IMG/VR virus record: IMGVR_UViG_3300010882_000010
Direction: 5' to 3' (one strand)
Source: a virus
Taxonomy: Duplodnaviria; Heunggongvirae; Uroviricota; Caudoviricetes
Length of the DNA: 64,000 nt
A program made the position numbers and the translations under genes. Positions 32,853 through 63,740 of the stretch are shown in pieces. Every line of letters starts with the position of its first letter. Position 1 is the first letter of the stretch. The notes under the pieces are model-generated. The model made no database searches, had not been told where the DNA came from, and saw only the letters and a list, made by a program, of their open reading frames with translations.

Positions 32853-32895
32853 ACAAACTGAAACGTCTTAGACGTAGACTACCTTAAACACGGAA

Positions 32896-32944
32896 TCTCT
32901 CAAGTTTGGACTTTGTAATCCGAGTTCGAGTCTCGGTGAGAGAT
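32896..32944 (+). ncRNA. tRNA-like minihelix with a 7-bp acceptor stem and a canonical T arm but no D or anticodon arm.
   Basis: tctctca-agtttggactttgtaa-tccgag/ttcgagt/ctcgg-tgagaga-t. The 7-bp stem is perfect and the T stem-loop is CCGAG-TTCGAGT-CTCGG. Confidence 0.4.
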
Positions 32945-32958
32945 CAAAAACAAAAACA

Positions 32959-35600: not shown

Positions 35601-36041
35601 ATGAAGAGTTTAATCGTTTTAAGAGGATTACCTGGTGCAGGAAAATCAACTTTAGCAGAAGTACTTTCAGCTGGAATACATCCAATTGCTTGTGCTGATG
35701 ATTATTTTATGGTAGATGGGGAGTACAAGTTTGATGCAAGAAAATTGGGTGAAGCACATGCTAATTGTAGAAATAGAGTAGAAGTTGCAATGCAAACATC
35801 ATGGCTTAATTCTTTGAAGTTTGATTACAATATCAATGAAGATCCATATCGTACAATAATTGTAGCCAATACTAACACAGTTTCAAGTGAATGGTATGAT
35901 TTCTATTCAGAACTTGCAGAAAAGTATGGTTATCAAATCCATTCTGTAATAGTAGAGAATAGACATGGAAACAAAAGTATTCACAATGTGCCAGAGGAAA
36001 CTATGGAAAGAATGAGAAACAGATTTGAAGTAAAACTATAG
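35601..36041 (+). CDS. P-loop NTPase kinase (polynucleotide kinase / nucleoside-monophosphate kinase-like).
   Basis: Walker A LRGLPGAGKSTLAEVL at the N terminus and small size, comparable to the T4 Pnk kinase domain. Sits downstream of promoter element copy D. Confidence 0.6.
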   Translation: MKSLIVLRGLPGAGKSTLAEVLSAGIHPIACADDYFMVDGEYKFDARKLGEAHANCRNRVEVAMQTSWLNSLKFDYNINEDPYRTIIVANTNTVSSEWYDFYSELAEKYGYQIHSVIVENRHGNKSIHNVPEETMERMRNRFEVKL

Positions 36042-36046
36042 TAGAA

Positions 36047-37218: not shown

Positions 37219-37233
37219 TTAAAACACAAAATA

Positions 37234-37461
37234 ATGAGTAAGTACGAAACACTTTCAAGATTAGATGAACTTAGAGAAGAAGAAAAATGGCCAGTGGTAG
37301 AAATGGAATTATGGGATGGTCAAGTTTTGCATGGTCTTTACAGAGGTATGGATGGAGATGATACTTTAATGTTGAAAAACATGGAAAGAACATCCACACT
37401 TGGTTGGCATGTTGAAACTATTAAGAACATTACACTTTTAAAAGAAGATCAAAATGACTAA
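37234..37461 (+). CDS. Hypothetical protein.
   Basis: 75-aa ORF. Confidence 0.4.
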   Translation: MSKYETLSRLDELREEEKWPVVEMELWDGQVLHGLYRGMDGDDTLMLKNMERTSTLGWHVETIKNITLLKEDQND

Positions 37462-37699
37462 AGAAGAACAAGTTATTATTAAAACATCTTCATACACCGA
37501 GACTTTTCCGGAATCTTCTTGTAAAGTTAAAGTTGCTATTAGAGCAGTTGGATGGGATAAAAATGATTGTTTCAAAACTTACGTCTATGAAGATGCCATC
37601 TATGATGGTGGATTTGTTACTATTCCAGAAAAGAAACAGTCCTACCTTGCTTTTAATTTTCTCTTTCACAAGTTGAAACGTGAAGATTTAAAGAACTAA
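37454..37699 (+). CDS. Hypothetical protein.
   Basis: 81-aa ORF. Confidence 0.4.
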   Translation: MTKEEQVIIKTSSYTETFPESSCKVKVAIRAVGWDKNDCFKTYVYEDAIYDGGFVTIPEKKQSYLAFNFLFHKLKREDLKN

Positions 37700-37714
37700 A
37701 AAAGACTAAAAACA

Positions 37715-38473
37715 ATGAGTTTGATTAATGTTCTTAAACGAGCAAAACAATACAGTAATGTTATTGCTGTTGGTGATATTCATGGTCAGACATCTGAGTT
37801 AGGTTACAGGATTAAAAAGCGTTACAATATTGAGAATAGTGTTATTATTCTTTGCGGTGATATTGGAGTTGGTTTTCACAAGTTTAACTACCATAAAGAT
37901 GACTTTGCACGGTTAGATACTATTGCTAAATCTAGCAAAAATTTGATTATTGTAGTACGTGGAAATCATGATGATCCTACTTATTTTGATGGAAGTTTTA
38001 ACATGTTTACCAATATTGCTTTTGTACCAGATTACACAGTAGTAGAGACAAAAAACCAAAGAATACTTTGTGTAGGTGGTGGTGTTTCTATTGATAGGAC
38101 AGATCGAAAATTGGGAAGTTCTTATTGGGGTGATGCGGAGTTACCTGTTTATGATGAAGAGTTGTTAAAATCAGCAGGAGAAATTGATGTAATCTGTGCA
38201 CATGGAGCACCATCTTGGTGTGAACCGAGTAATAAAGATGGAATTGACTATTGGATTTCAAAAGATTCAGAATTAAGCAAGGACATCGACTATGAACGAA
38301 AAGTGATGGATCAGATTTTTAATTACTTAGAGAAAAACACAAAGAGTTTGAATTTTTGGGTTTATGGTCATTATCACATGTCAAAATCTCAAAATTATGA
38401 TGGGATGCGATATCGTGCTATTGATTGTATGGAATTTTTTCCAATTCCAGACCTTGATAGAAAATCGGAATAG
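37715..38473 (+). CDS. Calcineurin-like metallophosphoesterase (Ser/Thr phosphatase / ApaH / RNA-repair phosphoesterase family).
   Basis: IAVGDIHGQ (GDxHG), CGDIGVG (GDxxDRG-like) and VRGNHDD (GNHE/D). Confidence 0.7.
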   Translation: MSLINVLKRAKQYSNVIAVGDIHGQTSELGYRIKKRYNIENSVIILCGDIGVGFHKFNYHKDDFARLDTIAKSSKNLIIVVRGNHDDPTYFDGSFNMFTNIAFVPDYTVVETKNQRILCVGGGVSIDRTDRKLGSSYWGDAELPVYDEELLKSAGEIDVICAHGAPSWCEPSNKDGIDYWISKDSELSKDIDYERKVMDQIFNYLEKNTKSLNFWVYGHYHMSKSQNYDGMRYRAIDCMEFFPIPDLDRKSE

Positions 38474-38484
38474 ATAGTAAAAGG
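38467..38484 (+). promoter_or_regulatory. Copy 4 of the motif (GGAATAGATAGTAAAAGG).
   Basis: One mismatch (A to G); 11 nt upstream of the ATG at 38496. Confidence 0.5.
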
Positions 38485-38495
38485 AATAGTAAGAA

Positions 38496-39491: not shown

Positions 39492-39527
39492 AACAAAAAA
39501 TTTTGCTTTTTTAGTTACTATCGAGAA

Positions 39528-39615
39528 ATTGTTAGTAACTTTTTTCTTTTAAAGACGTTTCGTATCAGTATTTTTAGTATTTTTACAGTATCAAAACAAT
39601 CAAAATTCAATCAAA
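39528..39615 (+). promoter_or_regulatory. Promoter element copy E (near-duplicate of copy A).
   Basis: aattgttagtaacttttttcttttaaagacgtttcgtatcagtatttttagtatttttacagtatcaaaacaatcaaaat. Confidence 0.55.
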
Positions 39616-39972
39616 ATGTCACAAGAAAAATTAACAAAAGAACACATCCAACTGAAGCTGGAAACTGACATCCGTTGGTTAGAAAGAGCAGTTGTAGCAA
39701 TTTGGGAATTCCAAACTGAACAAGAAAAATCTTACCAATCTACTTTAGAGTTTAATGGTGTAGGTTTTAATGGTTCAGATGCTCCATTTTTAACGAGTAT
39801 TGCCAATCATCTTAACAAAGGAAGACATCTTACTGAAAAGCAAATCCCTTACGTTCGTAAGAAAATGAAAAAGTATGCTGGTCAACTTTTGAGAATTGCA
39901 AATGCTAAAGCAGTAGCTAAAGCACAGAGAGAAGAAAATCAATCAAATTATCAACTTAAAATCAATTACTAA
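39616..39972 (+). CDS. Hypothetical protein.
   Basis: 118-aa ORF downstream of promoter element copy E. Confidence 0.45.
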   Translation: MSQEKLTKEHIQLKLETDIRWLERAVVAIWEFQTEQEKSYQSTLEFNGVGFNGSDAPFLTSIANHLNKGRHLTEKQIPYVRKKMKKYAGQLLRIANAKAVAKAQREENQSNYQLKINY

Positions 39973-39973
39973 G

Positions 39974-40165
39974 ATGAACACAATTAGAATTTCCATGTCA
40001 ATAATGTCCTATCTTTCAGATGCACAAGCAATGATAGAATTAGGTATGCTTAAAGAAGCAAATGCCAGAATTAACTGTGCAAAATCAATTTTGTTAGATT
40101 TTCCGAATACTAATGAGGAAGTAGACAAAAGAGCAATTTACGAATCAATTAAAGAATGGTTGTAA
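39974..40165 (+). CDS. Hypothetical protein.
   Basis: 63-aa ORF. Confidence 0.4.
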   Translation: MNTIRISMSIMSYLSDAQAMIELGMLKEANARINCAKSILLDFPNTNEEVDKRAIYESIKEWL

Positions 40166-41430
40166 TGGAAGGAATAGTAATAATTAACAATGCACAGACA
40201 CAAGCAGGTAAGATTTTATTGGAACTTGAATGTGAACGAATAGTAAACCAAGAACCATTCATTACAAATCTTATTGCAATAGGTGGAAAGCCATATTATG
40301 TTGGCGGTTTTGTAAGGGACTATTTAATGGGTAGACCTAATAAAGATATTGACATCATAGTTGAAGGGCTTAATATTGAACAGATTAGAAAATCTTTGAC
40401 TTACTTTGGTAAAGTAGATGTTGTTGGAGAAAGTTTTGCGGTTGTAAAGTTTAAATCTTCAGATACCGGAATTGAGTATGATATTGCAGCACCAAGAATC
40501 GACAAGAAAGTTGCAGAAGGTCACAAAGGGTTTGAAGTTGTTTCAGGAAGTGAAGTAACTTTAGAAGAGGATCTTTTGCGTAGAGATTTCAGAATTAATA
40601 GTATTGCAGTTGACATCCAAACAGGGAAAATAGTGGATCCATTTAATGGAATTGCTGATATTGAAAAACGTAGAATTACAATGACAAATCCTCAAGCTTT
40701 TCTTGATGATCCATTGAGAATTTTAAGGGCTGTTCAATTTTCTATTCGGTTTGATTTTTCAATAACAGATGGAACTTTCCAATTGATGAGAGAACATATG
40801 AAGTTGATTAAAGAAATTCCTGGCGAGAGAATACATGAAGAGTTTGTTAAAATTGCTATGAAAAATGGCAGTGCTATTAAGACTTACCAATTATTAAGAC
40901 AGTTGAATTTTCATCAATACTTTAATAGTAGTATGCAATGGGTAATTAATTCAGTTCAAGATCTTAAGATTGGAAGATTAAAGACAGGAATTTACGAGTA
41001 CAATACAATGGGTGAGTTTTTTACTATCATTTGCGGTTGTCATTCTAAAGCACCGGAATTTTATCAAGAAGTTTTGAAGGGTGAAACAAGCACATATAAA
41101 CAGATGAAAGCCATTCTATTTTACAAGAAAAACAGGTTTGAACATCCGGGAATTTTGGCAAGTAAAATGGTGAAGATTACGAATGATAGTTTTAGTTTTA
41201 CTAAAAATGTTGTGCCAGATGATGAAGTAAGAAGGTACTTGCATGATATGAGAGATGAGATATTGCCGGCATACGTAAAGGATTTGAAAATTAATGGTAA
41301 TGATGCAATAGAAGCAGGATATGAAGGTAAAAGAATTGGAGATATCTTGCAACGACTTTACGAAGGGGTAATAATGGGATGGTTTCCAAATGAACGTGAA
41401 AAATTGTTAGAACTTTTAAAATTAAAGTAA
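40156..41430 (+). CDS. tRNA nucleotidyltransferase (CCA-adding enzyme / poly(A) polymerase family, class II).
   Basis: Head-domain signature GGKPYYVGGFVRDYLMGRPNKDIDIIVEG (GGxVRD ... DxD). Confidence 0.75.
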   Translation: MVVMEGIVIINNAQTQAGKILLELECERIVNQEPFITNLIAIGGKPYYVGGFVRDYLMGRPNKDIDIIVEGLNIEQIRKSLTYFGKVDVVGESFAVVKFKSSDTGIEYDIAAPRIDKKVAEGHKGFEVVSGSEVTLEEDLLRRDFRINSIAVDIQTGKIVDPFNGIADIEKRRITMTNPQAFLDDPLRILRAVQFSIRFDFSITDGTFQLMREHMKLIKEIPGERIHEEFVKIAMKNGSAIKTYQLLRQLNFHQYFNSSMQWVINSVQDLKIGRLKTGIYEYNTMGEFFTIICGCHSKAPEFYQEVLKGETSTYKQMKAILFYKKNRFEHPGILASKMVKITNDSFSFTKNVVPDDEVRRYLHDMRDEILPAYVKDLKINGNDAIEAGYEGKRIGDILQRLYEGVIMGWFPNEREKLLELLKLK

Positions 41431-53207: not shown

Positions 53208-53888
53208 ATGAAGAGAGTTCAAACATTAGATGAGTTTGTTACTAACGAAACAAGTAAAGTTCCATATGGAATTAATAGTTCAGGTGGAATTGAAGCTATG
53301 ATGAAATTGAAGGGGATTGTAGAAAGATACCATAAGAATTGGGAGACTGAAGTTAGAAATGAACTTGATGATATGGTAGTTATTGATGGATATGGAGATA
53401 CAATTGCAAGGATGTACTATGCAATAGGTTGGAAAATGTGGAGAGTTGATGTAGTTGCAAATTATGATGTAAATCCTTCAAAAAGATTAGAATTTGAAAA
53501 GTTTGTCGATCAAATTATTGCAACTCCAGGATTGAATGTAGAAGAAATTTCAAACAAAGAATTTCAGAAAAAATTAGTTGAGTCTGATAATTCTGAACAA
53601 CTTTCTGAATCAATGTTAGGTCTTAATCTTAATTCTGAACAGAAAAAAGAATTAAAAGATTTTGTTTTTAATAATGCAGAAAAAATTTTGACTGAAAGAG
53701 GTGTTAGAAATGTTGTTAAAGTTTTGGAAGTAAATGCGCCTGGTGATAGTGTTAATATTGTTTATCGAAATGATAAGGGGGTTAGAATGAGTAAAAGTTT
53801 TAGTCAAGATGGTGATCCAACAATGGGTGTTCATGGATTAGGATCAAGTGATATAATTAGAGAATTTTCTAAGAAGTACAAAAAGTAA
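53208..53888 (+). CDS. Putative packaged internal protein (CTS-like N terminus).
   Basis: N terminus MKRVQTLDEFVTNETSK. Confidence 0.55.
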   Translation: MKRVQTLDEFVTNETSKVPYGINSSGGIEAMMKLKGIVERYHKNWETEVRNELDDMVVIDGYGDTIARMYYAIGWKMWRVDVVANYDVNPSKRLEFEKFVDQIIATPGLNVEEISNKEFQKKLVESDNSEQLSESMLGLNLNSEQKKELKDFVFNNAEKILTERGVRNVVKVLEVNAPGDSVNIVYRNDKGVRMSKSFSQDGDPTMGVHGLGSSDIIREFSKKYKK

Positions 53889-54741: not shown

Positions 54742-54810
54742 AATTGTTAGTAACTTTCTGAACTAACTGAAAAATCAGAAAGAAAAAAGTGCTATTTTTG
54801 TGTTTCAAAA
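54742..54810 (+). promoter_or_regulatory. Promoter element copy F, at the 5' edge of the tRNA array.
   Basis: aattgttagtaactttctg ... gctatttttgtg (54793-54800), followed by the aaaatgc x3 repeat. Confidence 0.5.
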
Positions 54811-54831
54811 ATGCAAAATGCAAAATGCAAA
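54809..54831 (+). repeat. Short tandem repeat (AAAATGC)x3.
   Basis: aaaatgcaaaatgcaaaatgcaaat lies directly downstream of promoter copy F. Confidence 0.5.
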
Positions 54832-54965: not shown

Positions 54966-55030
54966 AATTGTTAGTAACTTTTTCCAACTATTAGAAGTTG
55001 GTATTGAAATTTTTAGTATTTTTGTACTGT
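54966..55030 (+). promoter_or_regulatory. Promoter element copy G, upstream of the main tRNA array.
   Basis: aattgttagtaactttttcc ... tagtatttttgtac (55017-55024). Confidence 0.5.
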
Positions 55031-55145
55031 TCTTTGACATCTTGAATGAAAAAGTAAAGTAAAAAAGCAGATTCACTTTACTACCATGAACGAGGGATCC
55101 TATGGGTAAACTCTTAAAATGGAATTGTAATGGATTTGCTATTAT

Positions 55146-55218
55146 GCTCCTGTCATCTAAGGGTTTAGGATAAGTGATTTTCGATCACTAAATCGGGGTT
55201 CGAATCCCCGTGGGAGTA
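55146..55218 (+). tRNA. tRNA-Glu (anticodon TTC).
   Basis: Acceptor gctcctg/tgggagt, D stem atct/ggat, anticodon arm agtga-TTTTCGA-tcact, T arm cgggg-ttcgaat-ccccg. No encoded CCA. Confidence 0.7.
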
Positions 55219-55624
55219 CAAAGTTGTTAAAAGACGTTTTAATAACCTGGAGAGTTCGAAATCTCCGATCGAGCATAGTTTAGAGGGAACAGCCTGTCTG
55301 TGTAGGTCTAATTGACCGATAAGACGGGCGGGTGTAAGGTTCGAATCCTTATGGTTTGGCAGAATTTTGATTTGAAATTATCATTAGAGGTGTTAGTCCA
55401 TGTAGATTAACACCTCAGTGGTTAGGAAATCAAAGAAAAAACAACAACAGAATACTAAACATTGCGATGAGGGTCTGCAATATGGTACTAGTAAAACATC
55501 TCCCAAGGTGAATTAGAGGCGGGTTCCGCGGCATGTTAAACCTTAAAACATTGAAGTTTGGTAATTCTGTTTTTTTAATTAGGTACAATAGTTAAAATGA
55601 AAAGGCAATAAGCCCAATAAAAAT

Positions 55625-55652: not shown

Positions 55653-56471
55653 ATGCCTCGAAAAATTATTGATACTTTAAGAAATTGTGAAAATTGTGAA
55701 ATTGAATTTTTTGGACATACAAGGTTTTGTTCATTAAGTTGTAAAGGAAAGTATCTTGCCAAACGTTCATTAGAAGTACGAAAAGAATTGGGTGTATCTA
55801 TCGGAGCTAAAGTAGGTAGAAAAAACAAGAATGCACTTGGAAATTGGAAATGTGAAATTTGTGAAGAAGTTTTTAGAACAAGAAGAGAATTACAAGATCA
55901 TAAAAAAGTTCATGGAACAAGCATAGAACGAAACAAAGAAAAATTAAAAAAGGAGTACACTTGTCAATATTGTGGTAGATTGAAAATAACTACAAAAGAA
56001 GGTGCAACTAATCACGAAAGAGTTTGTAAAGAAAATCCTAATAGACAAAAAACATCACAAGAAGGAAAATCATTAACAGTAGAACACAAACAAAATGTTT
56101 CTAGAGGAATGAAAAAAGCACACGAAGAAGGACGAGCTTGGAATATTGGAAAAAGTAGATGGAATAATGAACCTTCTTATCCTGAAAAATGGTTTATGCA
56201 AGTAATAGAAAATGAGTTTAATGATAAATTGTATGAAAGAGAGTATTCTTGTAGTATTTACTCAATTGATTTTGCATGGGTGCATAAAATGAAAGGTATT
56301 GAAATTGATGGTTCACAACATCAAAGATTTAAAGAATATCAAGAAAGAGATGAGAGAAAAATGAAAAAGTGTACTGAATTTGGATGGAAAATTTTAAGAA
56401 TATCGTGGAAAGAATGTTTTAATAATCCAAAACAATGGATTAAAATAGCAAAAGAATTCATTGAAAATTAA
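55653..56471 (+). CDS. Homing endonuclease-like protein: C2H2/zinc-ribbon motifs, a NUMOD3-like segment, and a C-terminal DUF559/Vsr-like PD-(D/E)xK domain.
   Basis: CENCEIEF..CSLSC; CEICEEVFRTRRELQDHKKVH; NUMOD3-like LTVEHKQNVSRGMKKAHEEGR; C-terminal YSIDFAWVHKMKGIEIDGSQHQ...ERDERKMKKCTEFGWKILRISWKE. Inserted inside the tRNA array. Confidence 0.65.
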   Translation: MPRKIIDTLRNCENCEIEFFGHTRFCSLSCKGKYLAKRSLEVRKELGVSIGAKVGRKNKNALGNWKCEICEEVFRTRRELQDHKKVHGTSIERNKEKLKKEYTCQYCGRLKITTKEGATNHERVCKENPNRQKTSQEGKSLTVEHKQNVSRGMKKAHEEGRAWNIGKSRWNNEPSYPEKWFMQVIENEFNDKLYEREYSCSIYSIDFAWVHKMKGIEIDGSQHQRFKEYQERDERKMKKCTEFGWKILRISWKECFNNPKQWIKIAKEFIEN

Positions 56472-56544: not shown

Positions 56545-56745
56545 CAAAAAAATCAACAAACTGGATCCGACGTAATACAGAAGAAAAAACGGGGAAACAG
56601 AATTGCAATTAGATTGCTAATTTTGCTAATCATTTAGCTCATCCACAGTAGTCAGTTTGTTTTTAAAGAAATAGTGCGGGATAGACTGGAGGTGGTTCCA
56701 GCTCGGTCTCAATAAAGTATCCAACTTACTGTTAATTAGTTGGTT

Positions 56746-56791
56746 ACCGGAAAATAGTTGGAATATTAGGGTTCGAATCCTTATTCCGGTA
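56746..56791 (+). ncRNA. tRNA-like minihelix (acceptor stem plus T arm only).
   Basis: accggaa-aatagttggaatat-taggg/ttcgaat/cctta-ttccggt-a, with a perfect 7-bp acceptor-like stem. Confidence 0.4.
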
Positions 56792-56843
56792 CTAAGCCGA
56801 ACTACGTGGGTTCGACTCCCACTCCCGCTACAAAGTTTGATAC

Positions 56844-56897
56844 TTTTGATTTTTTGGGAAAAATCCGGATAGGTGAGTTCGAATCTCACATCAAAAG
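56844..56897 (+). ncRNA. tRNA-like minihelix (acceptor stem plus T arm only).
   Basis: ttttgat-tttttgggaaaaatccggatag-gtgag/ttcgaat/ctcac-atcaaaa-g, with a perfect 7-bp stem. Confidence 0.4.
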
Positions 56898-57119
56898 TAA
56901 AGAACCTAAAAGATAGGTTGTTAAGTGACTGAGCCTGAACGTATTCACTCTATGTACTCGGCTTTAACATGAAAGTAAAGGAAATTCCTGGGTGAACTAG
57001 CAGGTGGTAAAACTAGAACGAAGTAAGATGCTCTGTTTGAAGAATGAAACATCATCTGGCAACGGGGTTGTGTAGCCAAAGTTGACAACCAAGATCAACA
57101 CTTACTATCTTTTTCTCAT

Positions 57120-57192
57120 AGTGCTGAGGTCAAACGGTTAAGATGTCGCCCTGTCACGGCGTACGGAGCGGGTTCAACTCCCGTCAGCACTG
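57120..57192 (+). tRNA. tRNA-Asp (anticodon GTC).
   Basis: Acceptor agtgctg/cagcact (perfect), anticodon arm cgcc-CTGTCAC-ggcg, T arm gcggg-ttcaact-cccgt. Confidence 0.7.
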
Positions 57193-57600
57193 CATAATTA
57201 TCTAAAAAGATGCGGATTGAGTACTTTTGGTGAAACATGTGGAGAAACCAAAAGGATTAGCAAATTCAAGAAGGTGTTTTTAGGATTATGGCTTATTTGG
57301 ACTGCTATTCAAGTAGGTTGCAATAATTTCTAACTATTGGTGTAATTAGGTAACACGCTCTTCGAGGAGGAGGGAATTGAGAGTTCGAGTCTTTCATAGT
57401 AAGAAAGGTTTGCGTAGGTATTGCATAGCATTAAGGTTTAATGTGCTGGGAGGAAATCCCGGAGAATGGGTTCGAATCTCAACAATATCACAAAATGGCG
57501 AAGTACGCCCGTAATTGGTACACGGGGTCAATCTGAAAATTAAAAGATTGAATACTGCAAAGATTTCATTGTAAGTTCGATTCTTTCCTTCGCCGCAAAT

Positions 57601-57730
57601 TAGGGTGTAGCTCAGTGGTTAGAGCGCGTAAAATTCAACAACTAAAATCTGATAGTCAAAGGTTTTATGCAGCAAAAAATTAGAAATTGCATTCAGGAGC
57701 ACGATGTCGGTGGTTCGAATCCATCCACCC
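57601..57730 (+). tRNA. tRNA-like gene with a ~55-60 nt insertion in the anticodon region (candidate intron-containing or otherwise atypical tRNA).
   Basis: Canonical 5' half tagggtg-ta-gctc-agtggtta-gagc-g and 3' end ggtgg-ttcgaat-ccatc-cacccta (perfect 7-bp acceptor), but about 83 nt lie between the D stem and the T stem where about 22 are expected. Confidence 0.4.
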
Positions 57731-57817
57731 TAACTTTTTAAGTGCTTGTAGCAAAACGGCTTCGCCGCTGGCTTTTAACCAGCAGAAGGAGGTTCGACTC
57801 CTCCCAGGCACACTTAG

Positions 57818-57890: not shown

Positions 57891-58080
57891 CACAAAGGTT
57901 TCTTACAGCAACTTTTAGGACTCAACTTTTAATTGAACATTCTGAATGAAACCTGAAATTTTACATCCACAGTTTAATGGTTAAATACCTGAGATGCATG
58001 TCATGAAACTTGGGAGTTTGTCAGTTCGAGTCTGACTGGATGTGCTAAAAATCTTAACAAAATGGAAAACTTTAAGTAAT

Positions 58081-58508: not shown

Positions 58509-58578
58509 TGCAATGTAGATAATGATAGTCATACGGTTTCATGAACCGGAAGTCTTGGTTTGAATCCAAGCATTGCAA
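58509..58578 (+). tRNA. Second tRNA with anticodon CAT (Met, fMet or Ile2); degenerate D arm.
   Basis: Acceptor tgcaatg/cattgca (perfect), anticodon arm cggt-TTCATGA-accg, T arm cttgg-tttgaat-ccaag. Confidence 0.5.
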
Positions 58579-58585
58579 CAATTAA

Positions 58586-58658
58586 GCCTCTGTAGTTCAA
58601 TTGGATAGAACAAGAGATTTCTAATCTCTAAATCGGGAATCATGCTCCTGTGGAGGTA
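58586..58658 (+). tRNA. tRNA-Arg (anticodon TCT).
   Basis: Acceptor gcctctg/tggaggt (3 G-U pairs), D arm gttc-aattggata-gaac, anticodon arm agaga-TTTCTAA-tctct, T arm cggga-atcatgc-tcctg. Confidence 0.65.
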
Positions 58659-58706: not shown

Positions 58707-59207
58707 TTGCCTATGGTAAGAAAATCTAATCAGGAAATAGTGGACCTAGCGGCACAACTCGCAAAAGAAATTCATGGTTCACAAGCTGATAAACAAGGTG
58801 TTAACTATTTTCAAGGTCATTTGACAGAAGTAGCAAGTCATTGTCGAGAATGGAAAGAAAAAATCATTGCATATTTGCATGATGTTAGTAAGTTCACAGA
58901 CATTTCAGAGTCTGAATTGGTAATGATTTTGCAAGATCGTTCAAATGGTAGATTAACAGACAAAATTGCAATAAAATTAAAGAAAGCACTTTGGCTTTTA
59001 GATCCAAAGAATTCAAAAACAAGAGAAGATTACATCGAGGGGATTAAAACTAATTATCTTGCAACAAAAGTAAAATTATGGGATTTGCAAGATAACATGA
59101 ACCTTGTTAAGATGAAAAATCCAAAACAGAAAGATTTTTTGAGAATACAAAAATACTATAAAGAGTATGCTAATTTGATTAATCTTTCTCATTACAAAGT
59201 ATTATAA
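58707..59207 (+). CDS. HD-domain phosphohydrolase-like protein.
   Basis: H ... HD arrangement: IHGSQADKQGVNYFQGHLTEVASH...IIAYLHDVSK. Preceded by a degenerate GGAATAGATAGAGAAAAC motif (58687-58703). Confidence 0.55.
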   Translation: MPMVRKSNQEIVDLAAQLAKEIHGSQADKQGVNYFQGHLTEVASHCREWKEKIIAYLHDVSKFTDISESELVMILQDRSNGRLTDKIAIKLKKALWLLDPKNSKTREDYIEGIKTNYLATKVKLWDLQDNMNLVKMKNPKQKDFLRIQKYYKEYANLINLSHYKVL

Positions 59208-59343: not shown

Positions 59344-59473
59344 TGAAGGGTGGTGGAATTGGTATGCACCGGAGTCGAAAGGTTTTCTGAGATAAAAGAA
59401 AGTATGTAGTAATTATCGAATGGTAAAACCGGCGCTTAAAAAGCAATTGTAGGTTCAAGTCCTACCTCTTCAA
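59344..59473 (+). tRNA. tRNA-like gene with intact acceptor, D and T arms but a ~55 nt expanded central region.
   Basis: Acceptor tgaaggg/ctcttca, D arm ggtg-(g)aattggtatg-cacc, T arm gtagg-ttcaagt-cctac; total 130 nt. Confidence 0.35.
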
Positions 59474-60142
59474 CAAAATTAAAGGTTCCATACGGCAACT
59501 AATTCCAATTTGACTGTTACTCAAACTCCAACGGAACCTGAAGAAATCGCGACGGAAAAATGTGAAGTAAAAGGAGTCTCAAAAACCGTAATGGATATGA
59601 GATAGAGGTATGTGGTAGACCATTAATTGTAGGAAACTAGAATTAAAAAGTAATGAAAATTACAATCATAATAAGCAATTTTTCAAACAGTTACTTTAGT
59701 TGGTTCAAATCCAACACCGTCGCCAAAATACGTGATTATCCCGGTTCCCTTCGAGTTGAAAAATTCTAGAACACCGCGCTTAGGATAATCCTTTTTTACT
59801 GAATGGAATGTTAGTTTGGAAGCAGCTATTCATCTAAGGGGTGCGTAACAGCTCACCATTCAGAAGTCTCTAACAACCTCCATATGAATCAAGCCAGATT
59901 TTGTTCATTGTTAGAGTAAAAGCAAGAGTATGGATAGACAGAAATTGCAGGTGCAAAGTTGTGAGTAGTGGCGAGCGAAAACAGAGTGTCAGACATCAAG
60001 AACTTGAAAAGAACTGGCTGCGACAATCAAGTTCTTAATAATAGAGAGTGTTTAGAAATAGGCACTCTTTTTTCATTTTAACAGATTTTTAGCAAAACTT
60101 TTCCTAATTTTTGAGTTTAATTAAAAGCAAAAATTAAAATTA

Positions 60143-60167: not shown

Positions 60168-61406
60168 ATGATTTTATCAGAACAACACATCATTAAAAAA
60201 TCAAATCCTCTTTATCAAGAGTTAGATATGTTGTGTTTTTTATCTAAAAATCTCTACAATTTAGCTCTTTATTCTGTACGCCAACACTATTTTGAAACAG
60301 GAAAGTTTTTGGGAAAATTTGAGTTAATTAAGAACTTCACAAAGGAGAAACAGAAAGATTTTAAAAAATTAACGCATAGAGTAGCACAACAAATTATTTT
60401 TCAAGTAGAACAAGATATGCGTTCATTTTTTGCTCTTTTAAAGTTAAAACAAAAAGGACAATATCAAGGTAAAGTTAAATTACCTAAGTACAAAGAAAAA
60501 CAAGGTAGGAATGTAGCAATTTTTGAGATAATGGGTATTTCAGGAAAAGAATTAAAGAAAGGAATTATCAAATTTGGTGGAATGGAAATTAACAAAAAGT
60601 TTGTTCCGTTGGTTAAAAGAACCATCAAAACCAAACAATCTAAAGTTCAACAAGTTAGAATAATCCCTAAAAACGGATACTATACTGTAGAAGTGCTTTA
60701 CAAAGTAGAATCAAAACAAAAGAAAGAAGATAATCAAAAGTACTTATCAATTGATTTGGGCATAAACAACTTAGCAACTTTAACTTCTAATGTAACTAAA
60801 CCTATCATAGTAAACGGGAAACCTGTAAAGAGTATTAACCAATTTTACAATAAAACTAAAGCAAAACTCTCTTCACAATTAGAAACAGTAAACAAAACTA
60901 AATCATCAAAAAGAACTCAATCTTTATCCTTAAAGAGAAACAACAAAATTAAAGATTACTTTCACAAGACATCTAGATTCATAGTGAATCACGCAATTTC
61001 TAATGACCTTAATACCATAATTATCGGTAAAAATCAAGGCTGGAAACAAGACACAAATCTAGGTAGAGTTAATAATCAAAAGTTTGTTTCAATTCCGTTT
61101 AACAATTTAATTCAAATGATAAGCTACAAAGCTGAATTACAAGGAATTAAAGTTATTGTAAGAGAAGAAAGTTACACAAGCCAAGCAAGTTTCTTAGATA
61201 ATGATTTCATACCAAAGTATGGGGATAAGGAAATTAAGGAATTTAGCGGGAAAAGGATTAAGAGAGGTCTCTACCAGACTAAAAATGGTAGATTAATTAA
61301 TGCTGATGTTAACGGAAGTTTAAACATCATGAAAAAAGAAGTTCCAAATGCCTTAAATGGATATGGAATAGAGGTGTGCAGCACGCCATTAGTTGTAGGA
61401 TTCTAG
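60168..61406 (+). CDS. TnpB-like RuvC nuclease (IS200/IS605 OrfB family) with no zinc-finger cysteines.
   Basis: RuvC-I YLSIDLGINNLATL, RuvC-II VIVREESYTSQ, RuvC-III ADVNGSLNIMKK. There is no CxxC pair between the RuvC-II and RuvC-III motifs. Preceded by AGAATAGATAGTAAAAG (60143-60159). Confidence 0.75.
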   Translation: MILSEQHIIKKSNPLYQELDMLCFLSKNLYNLALYSVRQHYFETGKFLGKFELIKNFTKEKQKDFKKLTHRVAQQIIFQVEQDMRSFFALLKLKQKGQYQGKVKLPKYKEKQGRNVAIFEIMGISGKELKKGIIKFGGMEINKKFVPLVKRTIKTKQSKVQQVRIIPKNGYYTVEVLYKVESKQKKEDNQKYLSIDLGINNLATLTSNVTKPIIVNGKPVKSINQFYNKTKAKLSSQLETVNKTKSSKRTQSLSLKRNNKIKDYFHKTSRFIVNHAISNDLNTIIIGKNQGWKQDTNLGRVNNQKFVSIPFNNLIQMISYKAELQGIKVIVREESYTSQASFLDNDFIPKYGDKEIKEFSGKRIKRGLYQTKNGRLINADVNGSLNIMKKEVPNALNGYGIEVCSTPLVVGF

Positions 61407-61815: not shown

Positions 61816-62112
61816 ATGAGCACATCAGAAATTAAAGCATGTCCAAGAACAATAGAGGAAATTTTTCCATTGACTATTGTAATGATGAGATATGGTGGTA
61901 AAATTGTGATTTGCAATACAATAGCTGATAATTCAACAATTCAGGATTTGCAAGAAAGTGAAGAGCCGATGTATGATATTGATGGGTACATAACAAAATG
62001 GAGTTGTTTTGACTATGGATATGGTGATACAATATGGCAAGCTTTTGAAGATTACCAAAAGAGAATTTTAGGAGAATGGCAAGTTCCTGGATTATCAAAA
62101 AGAAAAGACTAA
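61816..62112 (+). CDS. Hypothetical protein.
   Basis: 98-aa ORF. Confidence 0.45.
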   Translation: MSTSEIKACPRTIEEIFPLTIVMMRYGGKIVICNTIADNSTIQDLQESEEPMYDIDGYITKWSCFDYGYGDTIWQAFEDYQKRILGEWQVPGLSKRKD

Positions 62113-62129
62113 AAAGACTAAGAATACTA

Positions 62130-63740
62130 ATGAAACAATACCTTGAATTATGCAAAGAGATAATCCAAGATGGAGAATTAAAAACGCCGGCGAGAAAAAA
62201 CATGCCAGCAACCATAGAACTTTTTAAGAGAGATTTGAGTTTTGATCTCAGAGAAGGTTTTCCGTTATTAACAACAAAAAAAGTTAACTTAAAGAACATC
62301 ATTACTGAATTATTTTGGTTTTTGAATGGTGAGAGTGATGTTAGATTTCTCACCAAACGAGGTTGTAATATCTGGAATGAGGATACTTTCAAGTTTGTTA
62401 AAGCGCAATATGAAAAAGAAAGTGAACCGGTTTTTAAATCACTGGGATTTGATGTGAAATTTCCAACCTATGAAGAGTGGATTAAGATTGGTAAAGGTGA
62501 GATGGAATGGCAATTTACACCAAATGCAGAAGCACCTATTAACAGGTATTTTGAAGGCGGCGAAGTGTATGGAAGACACTGGAGAAACTTTAACAATTTG
62601 ATACTTAATGATATACCTGTAATTAAGGATGGCGCTGATAGAGGATTTACCGATTTAATAATGAACGGAACAGATCAATTTTTGGCTTTAATTAATGGAA
62701 TTTTAACTAATCCCGATTCTCGTTATCATATTGTGAGTGCCTGGAATCCAACTGTTTTAGAAAAGAAAATGGCATGTTTACCAAGTTGTCATATCCTCTA
62801 TCAGTGTTCAATTTCAAAATCACGTTATCTTGATCTTTACATCTATCAAAGGAGTTGTGATTTTCCATTGGGTGTACCATATGATATCGCAAGTTATGCT
62901 ACTTTAATGCACATCATTTGCTATTTGACCGGATATGAACCTGGAATGTTACATTGGACGGGTGGAAGTTGTCATCTTTATGAAAATCAAATTACTACAA
63001 TGAGAGAACAGGTAGAGAGAAATCCAAAAGTACTACCAAAACTAAAGTGTGAATTAAAAGATGTTTTAGAACCAAACACAGAAGGAAGTGAATTAGGTCT
63101 TAAAATTTCTAGGCATATTAATGATAGTACACCATACACCAAAGAAGAACTTGCTGAGATTTTTGTTCCTGAAAGTTGGATTATTGAACTTGAAAATTAT
63201 GATAGTTATCCTGTGATAAATTATCCATTCTCTTCAGGCAAGGACAGATTTTGTAATGTTGCAGCAATAATTACCGTGCAAAATGGTGAAGAATTTACCT
63301 ACAAGCAAAATGTTGAAGAGTGGATGGTACATAATCCGAGAATGTTCAAGAATTTTGCAAAGAATGGAGTTGTTGTAACAGATGAAAATGGAAGAGCTTT
63401 GCTAAGTTCAAGATTAGGAATTGAAAATTGTTACACTTTGATGGAAGGAGACGATCCTAAAGAATTTTTAGAAGAGTTAAGAAAAACACAAGATCAAGTA
63501 GTTTACCTTTTTGGAAACTGGTCTTTGTATGAAAAGTTTTTGAAAGCAAGTTTGGTAGATGTAATTTACGGAACTTTTTGGTGTCAAGCATACGATTATT
63601 CAGATAAGAAATCTGTTAATGTTGATTGGGTAATGGATGATTTTGAAAGTGTATGGAGTTCTAATATCGAAGAAAACGGAAGGAAAAGTTATCAGTACAT
63701 TTGGCACAATAAAGAGTTCATTAAAAAATATCGAAAGTAA
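62130..63740 (+). CDS. Thymidylate-synthase-family enzyme, probably a dCMP hydroxymethylase or methylase (Asp at the ThyA Asn177 position), fused to a ~230 aa C-terminal domain.
   Basis: MKQYLELCKEI...GFPLLTTKKVNLKNIITELFWFLNG; catalytic Cys in LPSCHILYQ; RSCDFPLGVPYDIASYATLMHII, where ThyA has ...PFNIASY. The C-terminal half has a DHFR-like ...VVYLFGNWSLYEKFL segment. Confidence 0.75.
   Translation: MKQYLELCKEIIQDGELKTPARKNMPATIELFKRDLSFDLREGFPLLTTKKVNLKNIITELFWFLNGESDVRFLTKRGCNIWNEDTFKFVKAQYEKESEPVFKSLGFDVKFPTYEEWIKIGKGEMEWQFTPNAEAPINRYFEGGEVYGRHWRNFNNLILNDIPVIKDGADRGFTDLIMNGTDQFLALINGILTNPDSRYHIVSAWNPTVLEKKMACLPSCHILYQCSISKSRYLDLYIYQRSCDFPLGVPYDIASYATLMHIICYLTGYEPGMLHWTGGSCHLYENQITTMREQVERNPKVLPKLKCELKDVLEPNTEGSELGLKISRHINDSTPYTKEELAEIFVPESWIIELENYDSYPVINYPFSSGKDRFCNVAAIITVQNGEEFTYKQNVEEWMVHNPRMFKNFAKNGVVVTDENGRALLSSRLGIENCYTLMEGDDPKEFLEELRKTQDQVVYLFGNWSLYEKFLKASLVDVIYGTFWCQAYDYSDKKSVNVDWVMDDFESVWSSNIEENGRKSYQYIWHNKEFIKKYRK

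What the first reader, a model, noticed from the sequence alone, without database searches (positions are those of the whole stretch)
56746..56897. Armless acceptor-stem plus T-arm minihelices, three copies.
Three short elements each consist of a perfect 7-bp stem closed through a canonical tRNA T arm. They have only 14-22 nt of linker where the D and anticodon arms should be.
- 32896-32944: tctctca...ccgag-ttcgagt-ctcgg-tgagaga.
- 56746-56791: accggaa...taggg-ttcgaat-cctta-ttccggt.
- 56844-56897: ttttgat...gtgag-ttcgaat-ctcac-atcaaaa.

Perfect 7-mer complementarity at the right spacing three times over is unlikely by chance. Such minihelices are minimal substrates for RNase P, tRNase Z and CCA-adding enzymes. 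They could act as transcript-processing punctuation, as decoys or substrates for the phage CCA enzyme, or as remnants of tRNA genes. One lies right after the flotillin operon, far from the tRNA array.
Basis: seen in the sequence. Interest (0 to 1): 0.6.

Follow-up and report, generated by a model that had tools for sequence, protein, structure and literature searches.

The report
tRNA-like minihelices; one is a tRNA intron
Three stripped-down tRNA look-alikes in a large gut-phage genome are real, and one of them is the core of an 81-base insert that splits a tRNA gene's anticodon loop, the same unexplained kind of "intron" reported in Lak megaphages.

Summary
There are three perfect 7-bp stems closed through canonical T arms, with linkers of 14, 17 and 22 nt, against 0.01 expected by chance.

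The element at 56746-56791 is not free-standing. It is the core of an 81-nt insert (56712-56792) in the anticodon loop of a tRNA gene (56675-56831). Removing the insert restores the loop CTCATAA, so the gene is a tRNA(CAT). The same grammar appears in Lak megaphage tRNA introns (Devoto 2019, "enigmatic introns") and in Lak-like IMG/VR contigs: a hairpin, then an acceptor/T-arm module with a conserved GG in its linker, ending at N73-C74.

If the insert ends exactly at the inner module's C74, all 15 examples give a CT-NNN-AA loop whose anticodon fits the tRNA body. The published Lak "Tyr" genes with short variable arms then read as Asn.

The other two elements (32896-32944 and 56844-56897) are free-standing modules of the same build. 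No relatives exist to test them.

The mechanism is inferred. tRNA end-processing enzymes would cut at the inner module and an RNA ligase would reseal the loop. The phage encodes a CCA-adding enzyme, a PNK-like kinase, a phosphoesterase and two RNA ligases.

Verdict: new member of a known but unexplained kind.

The parts
56675..56831 (+). Interrupted tRNA(CAT) gene: outer acceptor stem (tGCGGGA / TCCCGCt, with a T:T mismatch at 1:72), D-arm-like ctgg-aggtggtt-ccag, anticodon stem TCGGT/GCCGA, T arm gtggg-ttcgact-cccac, discriminator A56830, C74 at 56831.
   Evidence: After in-silico removal of the insert, ARAGORN at default stringency calls a tRNA. The outer acceptor/T-arm pairing was found independently by the scan.
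56675..56711 (+). 5' exon, ending with loop positions C32 T33 C34 A35 (CTCA).
   Evidence: Junction rule tested on 15 examples.
56712..56792 (+). 81-nt intervening sequence (ATAAAG...CCGGTAC). It starts W-T-A as in the Lak-type inserts and ends at C74 of the inner module.
   Evidence: The grammar is shared with the Lak A1/A2 introns and with L021, L025, L037, L080 and L097.
56721..56743 (+). Hairpin in the 5' part of the insert: CCAACT - tactgttaatt - AGTTGG, extendable to gta-t-...-t-tac at 56717-56747.
   Evidence: RNAfold of the unit and of the insert alone. Its position matches the 4-5-bp ARTAAA-loop hairpin of the Lak-type inserts, but its sequence and loop size differ.
56746..56792 (+). 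Element 2: inner tRNA-like module. ACCGGAA / TTCCGGT acceptor stem, 14-nt linker aatagTTGGAAtat carrying a D-loop-like GG, T arm taggg-ttcgaat-cctta, then A73 and C74.
   Evidence: Rfam tRNA 22.4 bits, below threshold. GG motif statistics. Pair counts across 13 modules.
56793..56831 (+). 3' exon, starting with TAA (T36 A37 A38) and then GCCGA.
56841..56899 (+). Element 3: free-standing module 10-13 nt after the interrupted tRNA. 10-bp stem (7-bp core 56844-56850 / 56890-56896), 22-nt linker with a small hairpin and GG, T arm gtgag-ttcgaat-ctcac. The nucleotide after G73 is T, so there is no C74.
32895..32945 (+). Element 1: free-standing module in the 107-nt spacer between the flotillin gene (stop codon at 32850-32852) and the next ORF (ATG at 32960). 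7-bp stem TCTCTCA/TGAGAGA plus A32895:T32944, linker agTTTGGActttgtaat, T arm ccgag-ttcgagt-ctcgg, then T73, C74 and AAAAA, which is the usual trailer of tRNA genes in this genome.
   Evidence: Trailer statistics.
32863..32875 (+). Small hairpin acgtc-tta-gacgt 19 nt upstream of element 1. It may correspond to the hairpin that precedes the inner module in the inserts. Tentative.
   Evidence: By position only; no comparative support.
40156..41430 (+). CCA-adding enzyme (tRNA nucleotidyltransferase). Candidate partner enzyme; no link to the elements has been shown.
   Evidence: PF01743 3.7e-25 and PF12627. phrog_2244 3.5e-61.
35601..36041 (+). P-loop kinase of the polynucleotide-kinase type. Candidate RNA end-healing enzyme.
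   Evidence: PF13671 AAA_33 7.5e-7. phrog_2071 5.8e-33 and phrog_505 'polynucleotide kinase' 3.7e-5.
37715..38473 (+). Calcineurin-type metallophosphoesterase. Candidate RNA end-healing enzyme.
   Evidence: PF00149 8.1e-13. phrog_1649 7.6e-20.
55653..56471 (+). Zinc-ribbon plus DUF559/MTES_1575 (Vsr-like) nuclease ORF inside the tRNA array, ending 1 nt before tRNA-Asn and about 200 nt upstream of the interrupted tRNA. Homing-endonuclease-like.
   Evidence: Zn-ribbon nuclease-like or HNH ORFs also flank intron-bearing tRNAs in L021, L037 and L097. Sequence similarity to those is limited to the N-terminal zinc ribbon (pairwise E = 0.002).

Best explanation
The three elements are tRNA top-half mimics. 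Each has an acceptor-type stem stacked on a canonical T arm. The short linker keeps a D-loop-like GG that could dock on the T loop.

Element 2 is the core of an 81-nt intervening sequence (56712-56792) that interrupts the anticodon loop of a tRNA(CAT) gene. It is a diverged member of the tRNA-like-bearing introns reported in Lak megaphages.

Proposed mechanism:
1. The inner module is read by the normal tRNA end-maturation machinery. RNase P would cut at its 5' side, and a 3' cut would fall at its encoded C74. That position coincides with the start of the 3' exon.
2. The hairpin-bearing 5' part of the insert is removed.
3. The two exons, held together by the tRNA body, are resealed across the anticodon loop by an RNA ligase. 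This phage encodes two ligases, one of the T4 Rnl1 type.

Elements 1 and 3 are free-standing modules of the same build. Element 1 sits inside a probable polycistronic mRNA and has a tRNA-gene-like T73-C74-A-rich trailer. These two most likely serve as RNase P / 3'-processing sites that release a small tRNA-like RNA, or they are reduced tRNA genes still processed in that way.

Shown: the anatomy, the nesting, the junction rule, conservation of the module, and the presence of the candidate enzymes.
Inferred: every enzymatic step, and that splicing happens at all.
For: Non-randomness: 3 observed against 0.01 expected.

Nesting: ARAGORN with introns. The outer acceptor and T arm were found independently. 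Removing the insert gives an ARAGORN-recognised tRNA.

Same grammar elsewhere: L021, L025 (3 copies), L037 (2), L080/L123 and L097 (2), and the Lak A1/A2 introns in Supplementary Table S6 of PMC6784885.

Junction rule: if the insert ends at the inner C74, 15 of 15 give a CT-NNN-AA loop. GTA stays only in the two tRNAs with a 14-nt variable arm. The window gives CTCATAA. ARAGORN recognises 13 of 15 after splicing. The rule reproduces the one-nucleotide offset that Devoto et al. derived from intron-less alleles.

C74 is the normal 3' signature of tRNA genes here: 10 of 11 in the window, 62 of 62 in Lak-like loci, 533 of 618 in other viral loci.

RNA-level constraint: 98.8% of cells paired and 12 of 13 pairs changed on both sides across 13 modules. 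L025 and L097 carry near-identical inserts in Tyr and Phe genes, with a G-C to A-T swap in the T stem. An adjacent GG is present in 12 of 12 linkers (joint shuffle probability about 1e-6). All 9 hits to the stem-independent hairpin motif are followed by the stem/T-arm module.

Enzymes:
- CCA-adding enzyme, PNK-like kinase and metallophosphoesterase in the window.
- An RNA ligase (phrog_968, 7e-34) and a T4 Rnl1-type ligase N-terminus (PF09511, 34.8 bits against a 28.3 cutoff; phrog_562, 1e-15) at 4.9 and 8.9 kb past the window end on the same contig.
- An RNA ligase (PF09414, 7e-27) inside the intron-bearing array of L025.
Against: - There are no expression data, so splicing, cleavage sites and CCA addition are untested.
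- RNase P cleavage at the inner module would leave about 30 nt (W-T-A, the hairpin and the linker) on the 5' exon. I can name no enzyme that removes this precisely.
- The window's outer tRNA is atypical: a T:T mismatch at 1:72, a poor D stem, and no detection by Rfam even with an insertion allowed. It could be decaying.
- The window's insert shares no sequence with the Lak inserts beyond the T loop, and its hairpin is different.
- The RNA repair kit is equally well explained as a counter-defence against host anticodon nucleases.
- Stem pairing was a search criterion for part of the module set, which inflates the pair counts.
- The 8th base pair is not module-specific.
- Free-standing short minihelices in 1 Mb of other phage tRNA regions occur at chance frequency.
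- Nothing comparative supports a function for elements 1 and 3.
Confidence: 0.55

Rival explanations
1. Selfish mobile insert. The module-bearing insert is a mobile element that targets tRNA anticodon loops and persists because it splits the recognition site of a neighbouring free-standing homing endonuclease (collaborative homing). The tRNA-like module exists only so that the insert can be removed from the RNA. This is a rival for why the insert exists, and it is compatible with the splicing model.
For: - Near-identical inserts occur in different tRNA genes (Tyr in L025, Phe in L097), with 2-4 copies per contig.
- Lak phages show presence/absence polymorphism, with identical intron sequences across cohorts (PMC6784885).
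- Nuclease-like ORFs sit beside intron-bearing tRNAs in L021, L037 and L097 and in the window (55653-56471).
- The window is rich in mobile genes: two TnpB, DUF7487/TnsA-like ORFs, and an intein in the ligase gene.
Against: - The endonuclease-like ORFs are not demonstrably homologous between the window and the Lak-like loci.
- No intron-less allele of the window's tRNA was found.
- No cleavage specificity is known.
Confidence: 0.3
2. Decayed tRNA genes. The minihelices, at least elements 1 and 3, are remnants of tRNA genes that lost the D stem and anticodon arm by internal deletion. They have no function of their own.
For: - Other phages carry short minihelices directly after normal tRNAs that keep D-arm residue and an encoded ACCA. 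One example is L107 (AGTCCTG-TAGCTCAAacgat-...-CAGGACT-ACCA); L098 is another.
- The linkers of elements 1 and 2 contain AGTT(T)GGA, which resembles a D loop.
- The array holds other orphan T arms and odd units.
- Free-standing minihelices elsewhere occur at chance frequency.
Against: - All three keep perfect 7-10-bp Watson-Crick stems and canonical T arms (G53-C61, TTCGA), while several real tRNAs in the same array carry mismatches.
- Element 2 sits exactly where removing it restores a 7-nt loop.
- Element 1 is 22 kb from the array, in a host-derived operon whose bacterial counterparts have no adjacent tRNA.
Confidence: 0.2
3. The insert is never removed. The interrupted tRNA is a dead gene, or it acts as a decoy or sponge, for example for host anticodon nucleases or tRNA-binding defence proteins. 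The inner module adds a second tRNA elbow.
For: - The window's outer tRNA is atypical and is not found by Rfam.
- No known splicing signals are present: no group I or II features, no bulge-helix-bulge, and no Rfam family in the inserts (Devoto Table S6 notes 'no hit in rfam').
- The isotypes hit (Lys, Tyr, Asn, Phe, Thr, Met) include known targets of anticodon nucleases. That last point rests on my own knowledge.
Against: - In Lak-like contigs the outer tRNAs are in excellent condition (53.8 bits with the insert included).
- Removing the insert gives perfect 7-nt loops in 15 of 15 cases. That is hard to explain unless the spliced product is under selection.
Confidence: 0.15
4. One reading: independent armless minihelices that serve as transcript punctuation, or as substrates or decoys for the phage CCA-adding enzyme.
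For: - A CCA-adding enzyme is present.
- Element 1 lies between two genes on the coding strand, with no + strand terminator nearby, inside a block bounded by candidate promoter motifs at 28692 and 35525.
Against: - Element 2 is part of a tRNA insert.
- No other intergenic spacer in the 64 kb carries such an element, so this is not a general punctuation system.
Confidence: 0.15
5. Chance co-occurrence of T-loop-like hairpins and complementary 7-mers.
For: None beyond the fact that the genome is A+T-rich.
Against: 0.01 expected against 3 observed. The T-loop sequences are canonical.
Confidence: 0.01

Closest known systems
tRNA introns of Lak megaphages (Devoto et al. 2019, PMC6784885; also noted in the 2026 jumbo-phage survey PMC13037316)
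   Same: - The insert lies in the anticodon loop of a phage tRNA gene and is neither group I nor BHB type.
- It contains an acceptor-stem/T-arm tRNA-like module preceded by a hairpin.
- It starts W-T-A and ends at N73-C74 of the inner module.
- Removing it restores a CT-NNN-AA loop.
- The host group is probably the same, Bacteroidales.
   Different: - No sequence similarity beyond the T loop.
- The hairpin has a 6-bp stem and an 11-nt loop, not 4-5 bp with an ARTAAA loop, and it abuts the module with no A-rich linker.
- The host tRNA is a CAT tRNA, an isotype not listed for Lak.
- This phage uses the standard genetic code. Lak phages and most intron-bearing jumbo phages in the 2026 survey use alternative codes.
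- The publications flagged only the Thr intron as a possible tRNA and gave no common architecture or mechanism.
Minihelix model substrates of RNase P, RNase Z and CCA-adding enzyme (acceptor stem plus T arm; from my own knowledge of McClain, Guerrier-Takada and Altman 1987 and later work)
   Same: A 7-bp acceptor-type stem coaxial with a 5-bp T stem and a 7-nt T loop, with no D or anticodon arms.
   Different: - Those are laboratory constructs with a free NCCA end.
- Here the elements are genome-encoded, N73 can pair with N-1, and only C74 is encoded (elements 1 and 2).
- Cleavage has not been tested.
mascRNA / MALAT1-type tRNA-like 3' processing modules (RF01684)
   Same: A tRNA-like element embedded in a longer transcript. 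There, RNase P and RNase Z cleavage releases a small CCA-tailed RNA and defines the end of the upstream RNA. This is the working analogy for element 1.
   Different: - That system is eukaryotic and nuclear, with a cloverleaf that has an anticodon-like arm.
- The Rfam model matches only the genuine tRNA-Glu here, below threshold, and none of the elements.
T4 Pnkp + Rnl1 repair of nicked tRNA anticodon loops (from my own knowledge)
   Same: The phage encodes a PNK-type kinase, a phosphoesterase, a CCA-adding enzyme and an Rnl1-family ligase. These are the activities needed to reseal an anticodon loop.
   Different: In T4 the nick is made by a host defence nuclease (PrrC) in a host tRNA. Here the break would come from removing a genome-encoded insert. 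No link has been shown.
Group I introns in bacterial and phage tRNA genes, and archaeal/eukaryal BHB tRNA introns
   Same: Located in the anticodon loop of a tRNA gene.
   Different: - The insert is 65-141 nt, too small for group I. It has no terminal G, no P1-P9 and no Rfam match.
- No bulge-helix-bulge appears around the junctions in predicted folds.

Membership tests
Lak-type tRNA-like-bearing tRNA intron | The insert lies in the anticodon loop of a phage tRNA gene, and removing it restores a 7-nt loop and a recognisable tRNA. | tested here: met
   Window: CTCA|TAA gives CTCATAA, and ARAGORN calls tRNA(cat) after splicing. ARAGORN -i calls 56675-56831 with an 81-nt insert.
Lak-type tRNA-like-bearing tRNA intron | The insert contains an acceptor-stem/T-arm tRNA-like module with a GG-bearing linker. 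| tested here: met
   Element 2. GG present in 12 of 12 modules. Pair counts.
Lak-type tRNA-like-bearing tRNA intron | The insert starts W-T-A and ends at N73-C74 of the inner module. | tested here: met
   The window insert reads ATAAAG...GGT-A-C. The same holds in 15 of 15 examples.
Lak-type tRNA-like-bearing tRNA intron | A 5' hairpin of 4-5 bp with an ARTAAA loop, followed by an A/T-rich linker ending in AAA. | tested here: not met
   The window has a hairpin in the same position, but with a 6-bp stem, an 11-nt loop and no A-rich linker. The ACAG[AG][AG]TAAACTG motif hits only the Lak-like loci among the fetched loci; the window sequence was not included in that motif scan.
Lak-type tRNA-like-bearing tRNA intron | Sequence homology to the published Lak introns. 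| tested here: not met
   No match beyond generic T-arm similarity. By contrast, the L021 insert is clearly the same family as the Lak A1 'Tyr' intron.
Lak-type tRNA-like-bearing tRNA intron | Presence/absence polymorphism (intron-less alleles). | tested here: inconclusive
   No orthologue was found in the JGI metagenome contigs. All contigs of this phage are at least 99.87% identical and have no SNP in the array.
Canonical tRNA (Rfam RF00005) | Cloverleaf with D and anticodon arms, scoring at or above the 29-bit gathering threshold. | tested here: not met
   Element 2 scores 22.4 bits. Elements 1 and 3 are not reported. Linkers of 14-22 nt cannot hold both arms.
Group I intron | At least about 200 nt, P1-P9 core, terminal G, match to the Rfam Intron_gpI model. 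| tested here: not met
   The insert is 81 nt, ends in C, and has no Rfam hit at E <= 10.
Archaeal/eukaryal BHB tRNA intron | Bulge-helix-bulge (3-4-3) at the exon-intron junctions. | tested here: not met
   No such motif appears in the MFE folds of the window unit or of the Lak-like units. This was checked by inspection only.
tmRNA | tRNA-like domain plus a tag reading frame. | tested here: not met
   ARAGORN -m finds no tmRNA in the window.
Mitochondrial-type armless tRNA | Keeps the anticodon arm and lacks the D and/or T arm. | tested here: not met
   The anatomy here is the opposite: the T arm is kept and the anticodon arm is missing. ARAGORN in mt mode calls 56835-56897 'Pro(ggg)' only by using a non-canonical loop.
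RNase P / RNase Z minihelix substrate | A 12-bp coaxial acceptor/T helix with a T loop. | tested here: met
RNase P / RNase Z minihelix substrate | Cleaved by the enzymes at +1 and after N73. | not testable with these tools
   Needs in vitro assays or RNA end mapping.
YrlA / bacterial Y RNA tRNA-like domain (RF02553) | Match to the Rfam model; Ro-binding helix. | tested here: not met
   Only weak sub-threshold hits elsewhere in the array (57544-57654 and 58553-58611, at most 17.9 bits against a gathering score of 69). None at the elements.
T4 stable RNAs species 1 and 2 (rnaC, rnaD) in the tRNA cluster | Small stable RNAs with tRNA-like termini encoded among phage tRNA genes. | not tested
   Recalled from memory only. 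The T4 region was not fetched or compared.

The most novel reading that the evidence does not exclude
These inserts represent a third route of tRNA splicing, distinct from self-splicing group I introns and from the BHB endonuclease pathway. The intron carries its own tRNA-like module, so the ordinary tRNA end-maturation enzymes (RNase P and the 3' processing activity that stops at C74) define the cuts. A phage Rnl1-type RNA ligase then reseals the anticodon loop. The free-standing modules (elements 1 and 3) use the same enzymes to punctuate transcripts and release small CCA-tailed tRNA-like RNAs.
Probability: 0.22. Interest if true: 0.85.

Novelty: new member of a known kind. Interest (0 to 1): 0.5.

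Why it matters
Non-group-I introns in the tRNA genes of bacterial viruses have been on record since 2019 as "enigmatic". No architecture or mechanism has been proposed for them. This window has several practical consequences.

- **Wider distribution.** The class extends to a standard-code, non-Lak jumbo phage.
- **A concrete grammar.** The insert has a hairpin, then an acceptor/T-arm module with a conserved GG, and ends at C74.
- **A junction rule.** The rule predicts the spliced sequence exactly, so the splicing question can be tested directly with tRNA-seq or three-enzyme in vitro assays.
- **Annotation fixes.** The window's gene is a tRNA(CAT) that default ARAGORN and Rfam both miss. The published Lak "tRNA-Tyr(GTA)" genes with short variable arms are better read as tRNA-Asn(GTT).

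If the processing model holds, it would show that a tRNA-like module can make a selfish insert harmless by borrowing the cell's tRNA maturation enzymes.

Tried and rejected
**Searches for relatives**
- Protein anchors 53208-53888, 58707-59207 and flotillin in IMG/VR found no relatives. In the 5.8-billion-protein set the first two are orphans.
- Flotillin homologues are bacterial (Bacteroidales) and lie in housekeeping contexts. No tRNA is adjacent to them.
- DNA anchors from element 2, tRNA-Asn and tRNA-Asp found nothing in IMG/VR.
- The 3' exon found nothing in the JGI metagenome contigs.
- INPHARED gave tRNA-only hits.

**Population variation**
- All contigs of this phage are at least 99.87% identical, with no SNP in the array.

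**Ideas I dropped**
- My first splice guess (loop CTCAAAA, Leu-CAA) gave type-I "Leu" and "Tyr" tRNAs. The C74 rule replaced it.
- The 8th base pair (N-1:N73) is not a hallmark of the module. It is pairable in 77% of ordinary tRNAs in Lak-like loci.
- Enrichment of free-standing minihelices in other phages: 9 in 1.06 Mb against 9-17 at decoy offsets, so they are not enriched.
- Other IMG/VR families with nested T loops (L011, L104, L047 and others) do not follow the grammar.
- Linking L025 to deposited Lak genomes by BLAST failed because those genomes are absent from that collection. The link was made through Devoto's Supplementary Table S6 instead.
- Ribozyme or other named RNA family in the inserts: none in Rfam.
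- The 331-aa ORF 38496-39491 as a ligase: no KxDG motif, no family or PDB hit, and AF2 pLDDT of 34.
- Homology between the window's nuclease ORF and the Lak-like ORFs is limited to a zinc ribbon.
- The suspected 23S rRNA fragments at 59.8-60.0 kb have no BLAST or Rfam support.
- Element 1 as a terminator: there is no + strand terminator-like site.
Full report
**1. The observation**

The three elements are present as described. I scanned for a 5-bp T stem with a TTCRANN loop, followed directly by 7 nt with a perfect Watson-Crick partner 8-30 nt upstream. The scan returns exactly these three sites, with linkers of 17, 14 and 22 nt. Dinucleotide-preserving shuffles give 0.01 such sites per window. 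All three lie on the + strand, as does every large ORF in the window.

Rfam scores element 2 as tRNA at 22.4 bits, below the 29-bit threshold, and does not report the other two. Free-energy folding is not diagnostic on its own.

**2. What the genome is**

- The window has 31.5% G+C and uses the standard genetic code.
- It belongs to a phage whose longest contig is at least 219 kb.
- It has no close relative in INPHARED or IMG/VR.
- Its flotillin gene is about 54% identical to Bacteroides, Parabacteroides and Leyella proteins, which points to a Bacteroidales host.
- The tRNA array (about 54.8-59.8 kb) is untidy. ARAGORN finds 11 tRNAs. Rfam adds a second tRNA-Asp at 57120-57192 and a tRNA with a 71-nt insertion at 57601-57733.
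- The array also holds orphan T arms, several over-long acceptor/T-arm units, a homing-endonuclease-like ORF and a TnpB gene.

**3. Element 2 is nested**

The 7-mer tGCGGGA at 56675 pairs with TCCCGCt at 56823. That 3' strand follows a second T arm (gtggg-ttcgact-cccac) lying only 22 nt downstream of element 2. With introns allowed, ARAGORN calls 56675-56831 a tRNA with an 81-nt insert. So element 2 sits inside the anticodon loop of a tRNA gene.

**4. The same architecture elsewhere**

I searched IMG/VR for two canonical T loops 15-45 nt apart, a spacing that two adjacent normal tRNAs cannot have. This returned more than 120 loci. Most are a normal tRNA followed by an orphan T arm.

A subset shows a well-formed tRNA whose anticodon loop is interrupted by a hairpin, an A-rich linker and an acceptor/T-arm module. 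These are L021, L025, L037, L080/L123 and L097, from contigs of up to 448 kb. A search for the conserved hairpin motif, which ignores stems, found nine sites. Every one is followed by the stem/T-arm module, and every one lies in a tRNA anticodon loop. There are 2-4 per contig, in different tRNAs.

**5. Literature**

Devoto et al. 2019 (PMC6784885) reported "tRNAs with highly conserved introns" in Lak megaphages, in the Tyr, Phe, Thr and Gly genes. Some genomes have a given intron and others lack it. The Thr intron "itself may encode a tRNA". The abstract calls these introns "enigmatic".

A 2026 survey (PMC13037316) repeats that such introns "could encode another tRNA" and links them to alternative-code jumbo phages.

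The sequences in Devoto's Supplementary Table S6, annotated "no hit in rfam", all follow the grammar I found. The Lak A1 "Tyr" intron belongs to the same family as the L021 insert. The class is therefore known as an observation. Its common architecture and its mechanism have not been described.

**6. Anatomy of the module**

- Across 13 modules, the 8+5-bp helix is 98.8% paired and 12 of 13 pairs change on both sides. Pairing was a search criterion for some copies, which inflates this figure.
- L025 (in Tyr) and L097 (in Phe) carry near-identical inserts that differ by a compensatory G-C to A-T change in the T stem.
- The hairpin stems covary: CAGG/CCTG, ACAG/CTGT, AATC/GATT, CAAG/CTTG and ATGG/CCAT (read directly from the sequences).
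- All 12 short linkers contain an adjacent GG preceded by A or T (joint shuffle probability about 1e-6). This fits a D-loop G18-G19 surrogate that docks on the T loop.
- The extra pair N-1:N73 is not specific to the module, because ordinary tRNAs in these loci have it in 77% of cases.

**7. The junction rule**

Ordinary tRNA genes in these genomes encode C74 after the discriminator: 10 of 11 in the window, 62 of 62 in Lak-like loci and 86% in other viral loci. The inner modules also end in N73-C74.

If the insert is taken to end exactly at the inner C74, all 15 examples give a CT-NNN-AA loop. The isotype then matches the tRNA body:

- GTA remains only in the two tRNAs with a 14-nt variable arm, which are true Tyr.
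- The short-variable-arm "Tyr" genes become Asn(GTT). This includes the published Lak A1 "Tyr".
- The window's gene becomes a tRNA(CAT) with loop CTCATAA, instead of an implausible type-I Leu(CAA).

After splicing by this rule, ARAGORN recognises 13 of the 15. The rule also reproduces the one-nucleotide offset that Devoto et al. inferred from intron-less Thr alleles. In the window the insert is 56712-56792.

**8. Enzymes**

The window encodes a CCA-adding enzyme (40156-41430), a PNK-like P-loop kinase (35601-36041) and a metallophosphoesterase (37715-38473).

On the same contig, 4.9 and 8.9 kb past the window end, lie two more relevant genes:

- a 469-aa RNA ligase (phrog_968, E = 7e-34);
- the N-terminus of a T4 Rnl1-type ligase that runs into an intein (PF09511 above its cutoff; phrog_562, E = 1e-15).

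L025 has an RNA ligase (PF09414, E = 7e-27) inside its intron-bearing array. Everything needed to reseal a nicked anticodon loop is therefore present. The same kit could equally serve as a counter-defence against host anticodon nucleases.

**9. Elements 1 and 3**

Both are free-standing.

- **Element 1** lies in the spacer after the flotillin gene. It has a T73-C74-A-rich trailer like the real tRNA genes here. A small hairpin lies 19 nt upstream, and there is no + strand terminator nearby. It sits between two copies of a candidate promoter motif, at 28692 and 35525. It was not captured together with the flotillin operon.
- **Element 3** begins 10-13 nt after the interrupted tRNA (outer stem at 56841, 7-bp core at 56844). 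It has a 10-bp stem and no C74.

In other phages, short minihelices directly after tRNAs exist but occur at chance frequency. Some are clearly internally deleted tRNAs that keep an encoded ACCA. With no relatives available, I cannot decide between function and decay for these two. Their perfect stems and canonical T arms argue against old decay.

**10. Verdict**

Element 2 is a new, diverged member of the Lak-type tRNA-like-bearing tRNA introns. The proposed processing route (tRNA end-maturation enzymes plus RNA ligase) is inferred. Its main weakness is that I can name no enzyme for the 5' junction.

Noticed in passing
window 57601-57734, 57497-57595, 59344-59474, 59550-59722, 57963-58043: Five more odd acceptor/T-arm units sit in the array. 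One is a tRNA with a 60-71-nt insert that has no inner T arm (Rfam 46 bits). Three are over-long units with 98-142 nt between the acceptor 5' strand and the T arm. One is an 81-nt unit with a perfect ACATCCA/TGGATGT acceptor stem that neither ARAGORN nor Rfam calls. Their inserts do not follow the module grammar.
   Followed up: partly
window 57120-57192: A second tRNA-Asp(GTC) is missed by default ARAGORN but found by Rfam at 51.8 bits.
   Followed up: yes
Lak A1/A2 'tRNA-Tyr(GTA)' in PMC6784885 Table S6; L021 3284-3498, L025 2224-2375, L037 (- strand) around 4566-4700: With the C74 junction rule, the short-variable-arm tRNAs annotated or predicted as Tyr(GTA) give the loop CTGTTAA, which is tRNA-Asn(GTT). 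Only the two genes with a 14-nt variable arm remain Tyr.
   Followed up: yes
all tRNA genes in the window and in 120 viral loci: C74 is encoded after the discriminator in 86-100% of phage tRNA genes, usually followed by A or T and not by CA. This points to a 3' maturation route that stops at C74 and leaves the CCA enzyme to add CA.
   Followed up: partly
window 35601-41430: A cluster of RNA-end-related genes: PNK-like kinase, RF-1-domain (peptidyl-tRNA-hydrolase-like) protein, 5'-nucleotidase, metallophosphoesterase and CCA-adding enzyme. The kinase and the phosphoesterase both weakly match successive parts of phrog_8238, a Pnkp-like kinase-phosphatase-ligase profile.
   Followed up: partly
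L131 16785-18194 and 20737-21303 (4.9 and 8.9 kb past the window end, same contig): There are two RNA ligase genes. The T4 Rnl1-type gene is interrupted by an intein after about residue 88 and is followed by a DUF7487 endonuclease-like gene.
   Followed up: partly
window 9422, 26963, 28692, 35525, 39529, 54744, 54968 (+ strand): TTGTTAGTAAC is a repeated intergenic motif, part of a longer AAATTGTTAGTAACTTTTT...GTATTTTTAGTATTTTTAC block. With one mismatch allowed there are 15 matches against 2 expected. It precedes the tRNA array, the RNA-repair cluster and other blocks, so it may be a phage promoter or operator.
   Followed up: partly
window 5946-7301 and 60168-61406: There are two TnpB (OrfB_IS605 plus Cas12f-like TNB) genes. 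One lies just downstream of the tRNA array.
   Followed up: no
window 55653-56471; also 15023-16069 and 18624-19376: Several homing-endonuclease-like ORFs are present. One has a zinc ribbon plus a DUF559/MTES_1575 nuclease and ends 1 nt before tRNA-Asn. Two are DUF7487/TnsA-like ORFs.
   Followed up: partly
window 62076-63740 and 8306-9400: The thymidylate synthase (536-554 aa) and the dihydrofolate reductase (364 aa) are each about twice the usual length. The Pfam match to ThyA is stretched over residues 20-326, which suggests an insertion.
   Followed up: no
window 55029-55219 and L025 2005-2099: Both this phage and a Lak-like contig give sub-threshold matches to the Rfam DUF2693 RNA model (33.4 and 27.5 bits against a gathering score of 81.3), in each case next to the tRNA array.
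   Followed up: no
window about 55251, 55335-55351, about 57467: Orphan T-arm-like hairpins (ggaga-gttcgaaa-tctcc, taagg-ttcgaat-cctta, tggg-ttcgaat-ctca) have no acceptor partner. They are probably tRNA debris.
   Followed up: no
L097 874-2076: A reverse transcriptase gene (RVT_1, E = 5e-20) lies next to an intron-bearing tRNA array in a Lak-like contig.
   Followed up: no
window 59805-59990: Stretches here reminded me of 23S rRNA segments. Neither BLAST against E. coli genomes nor Rfam supports this, so I treat it as unfounded.
   Followed up: yes
window 54805-54830: A short tandem repeat (AAAATGC x3) lies between the candidate promoter motif and tRNA-Asp.
   Followed up: no
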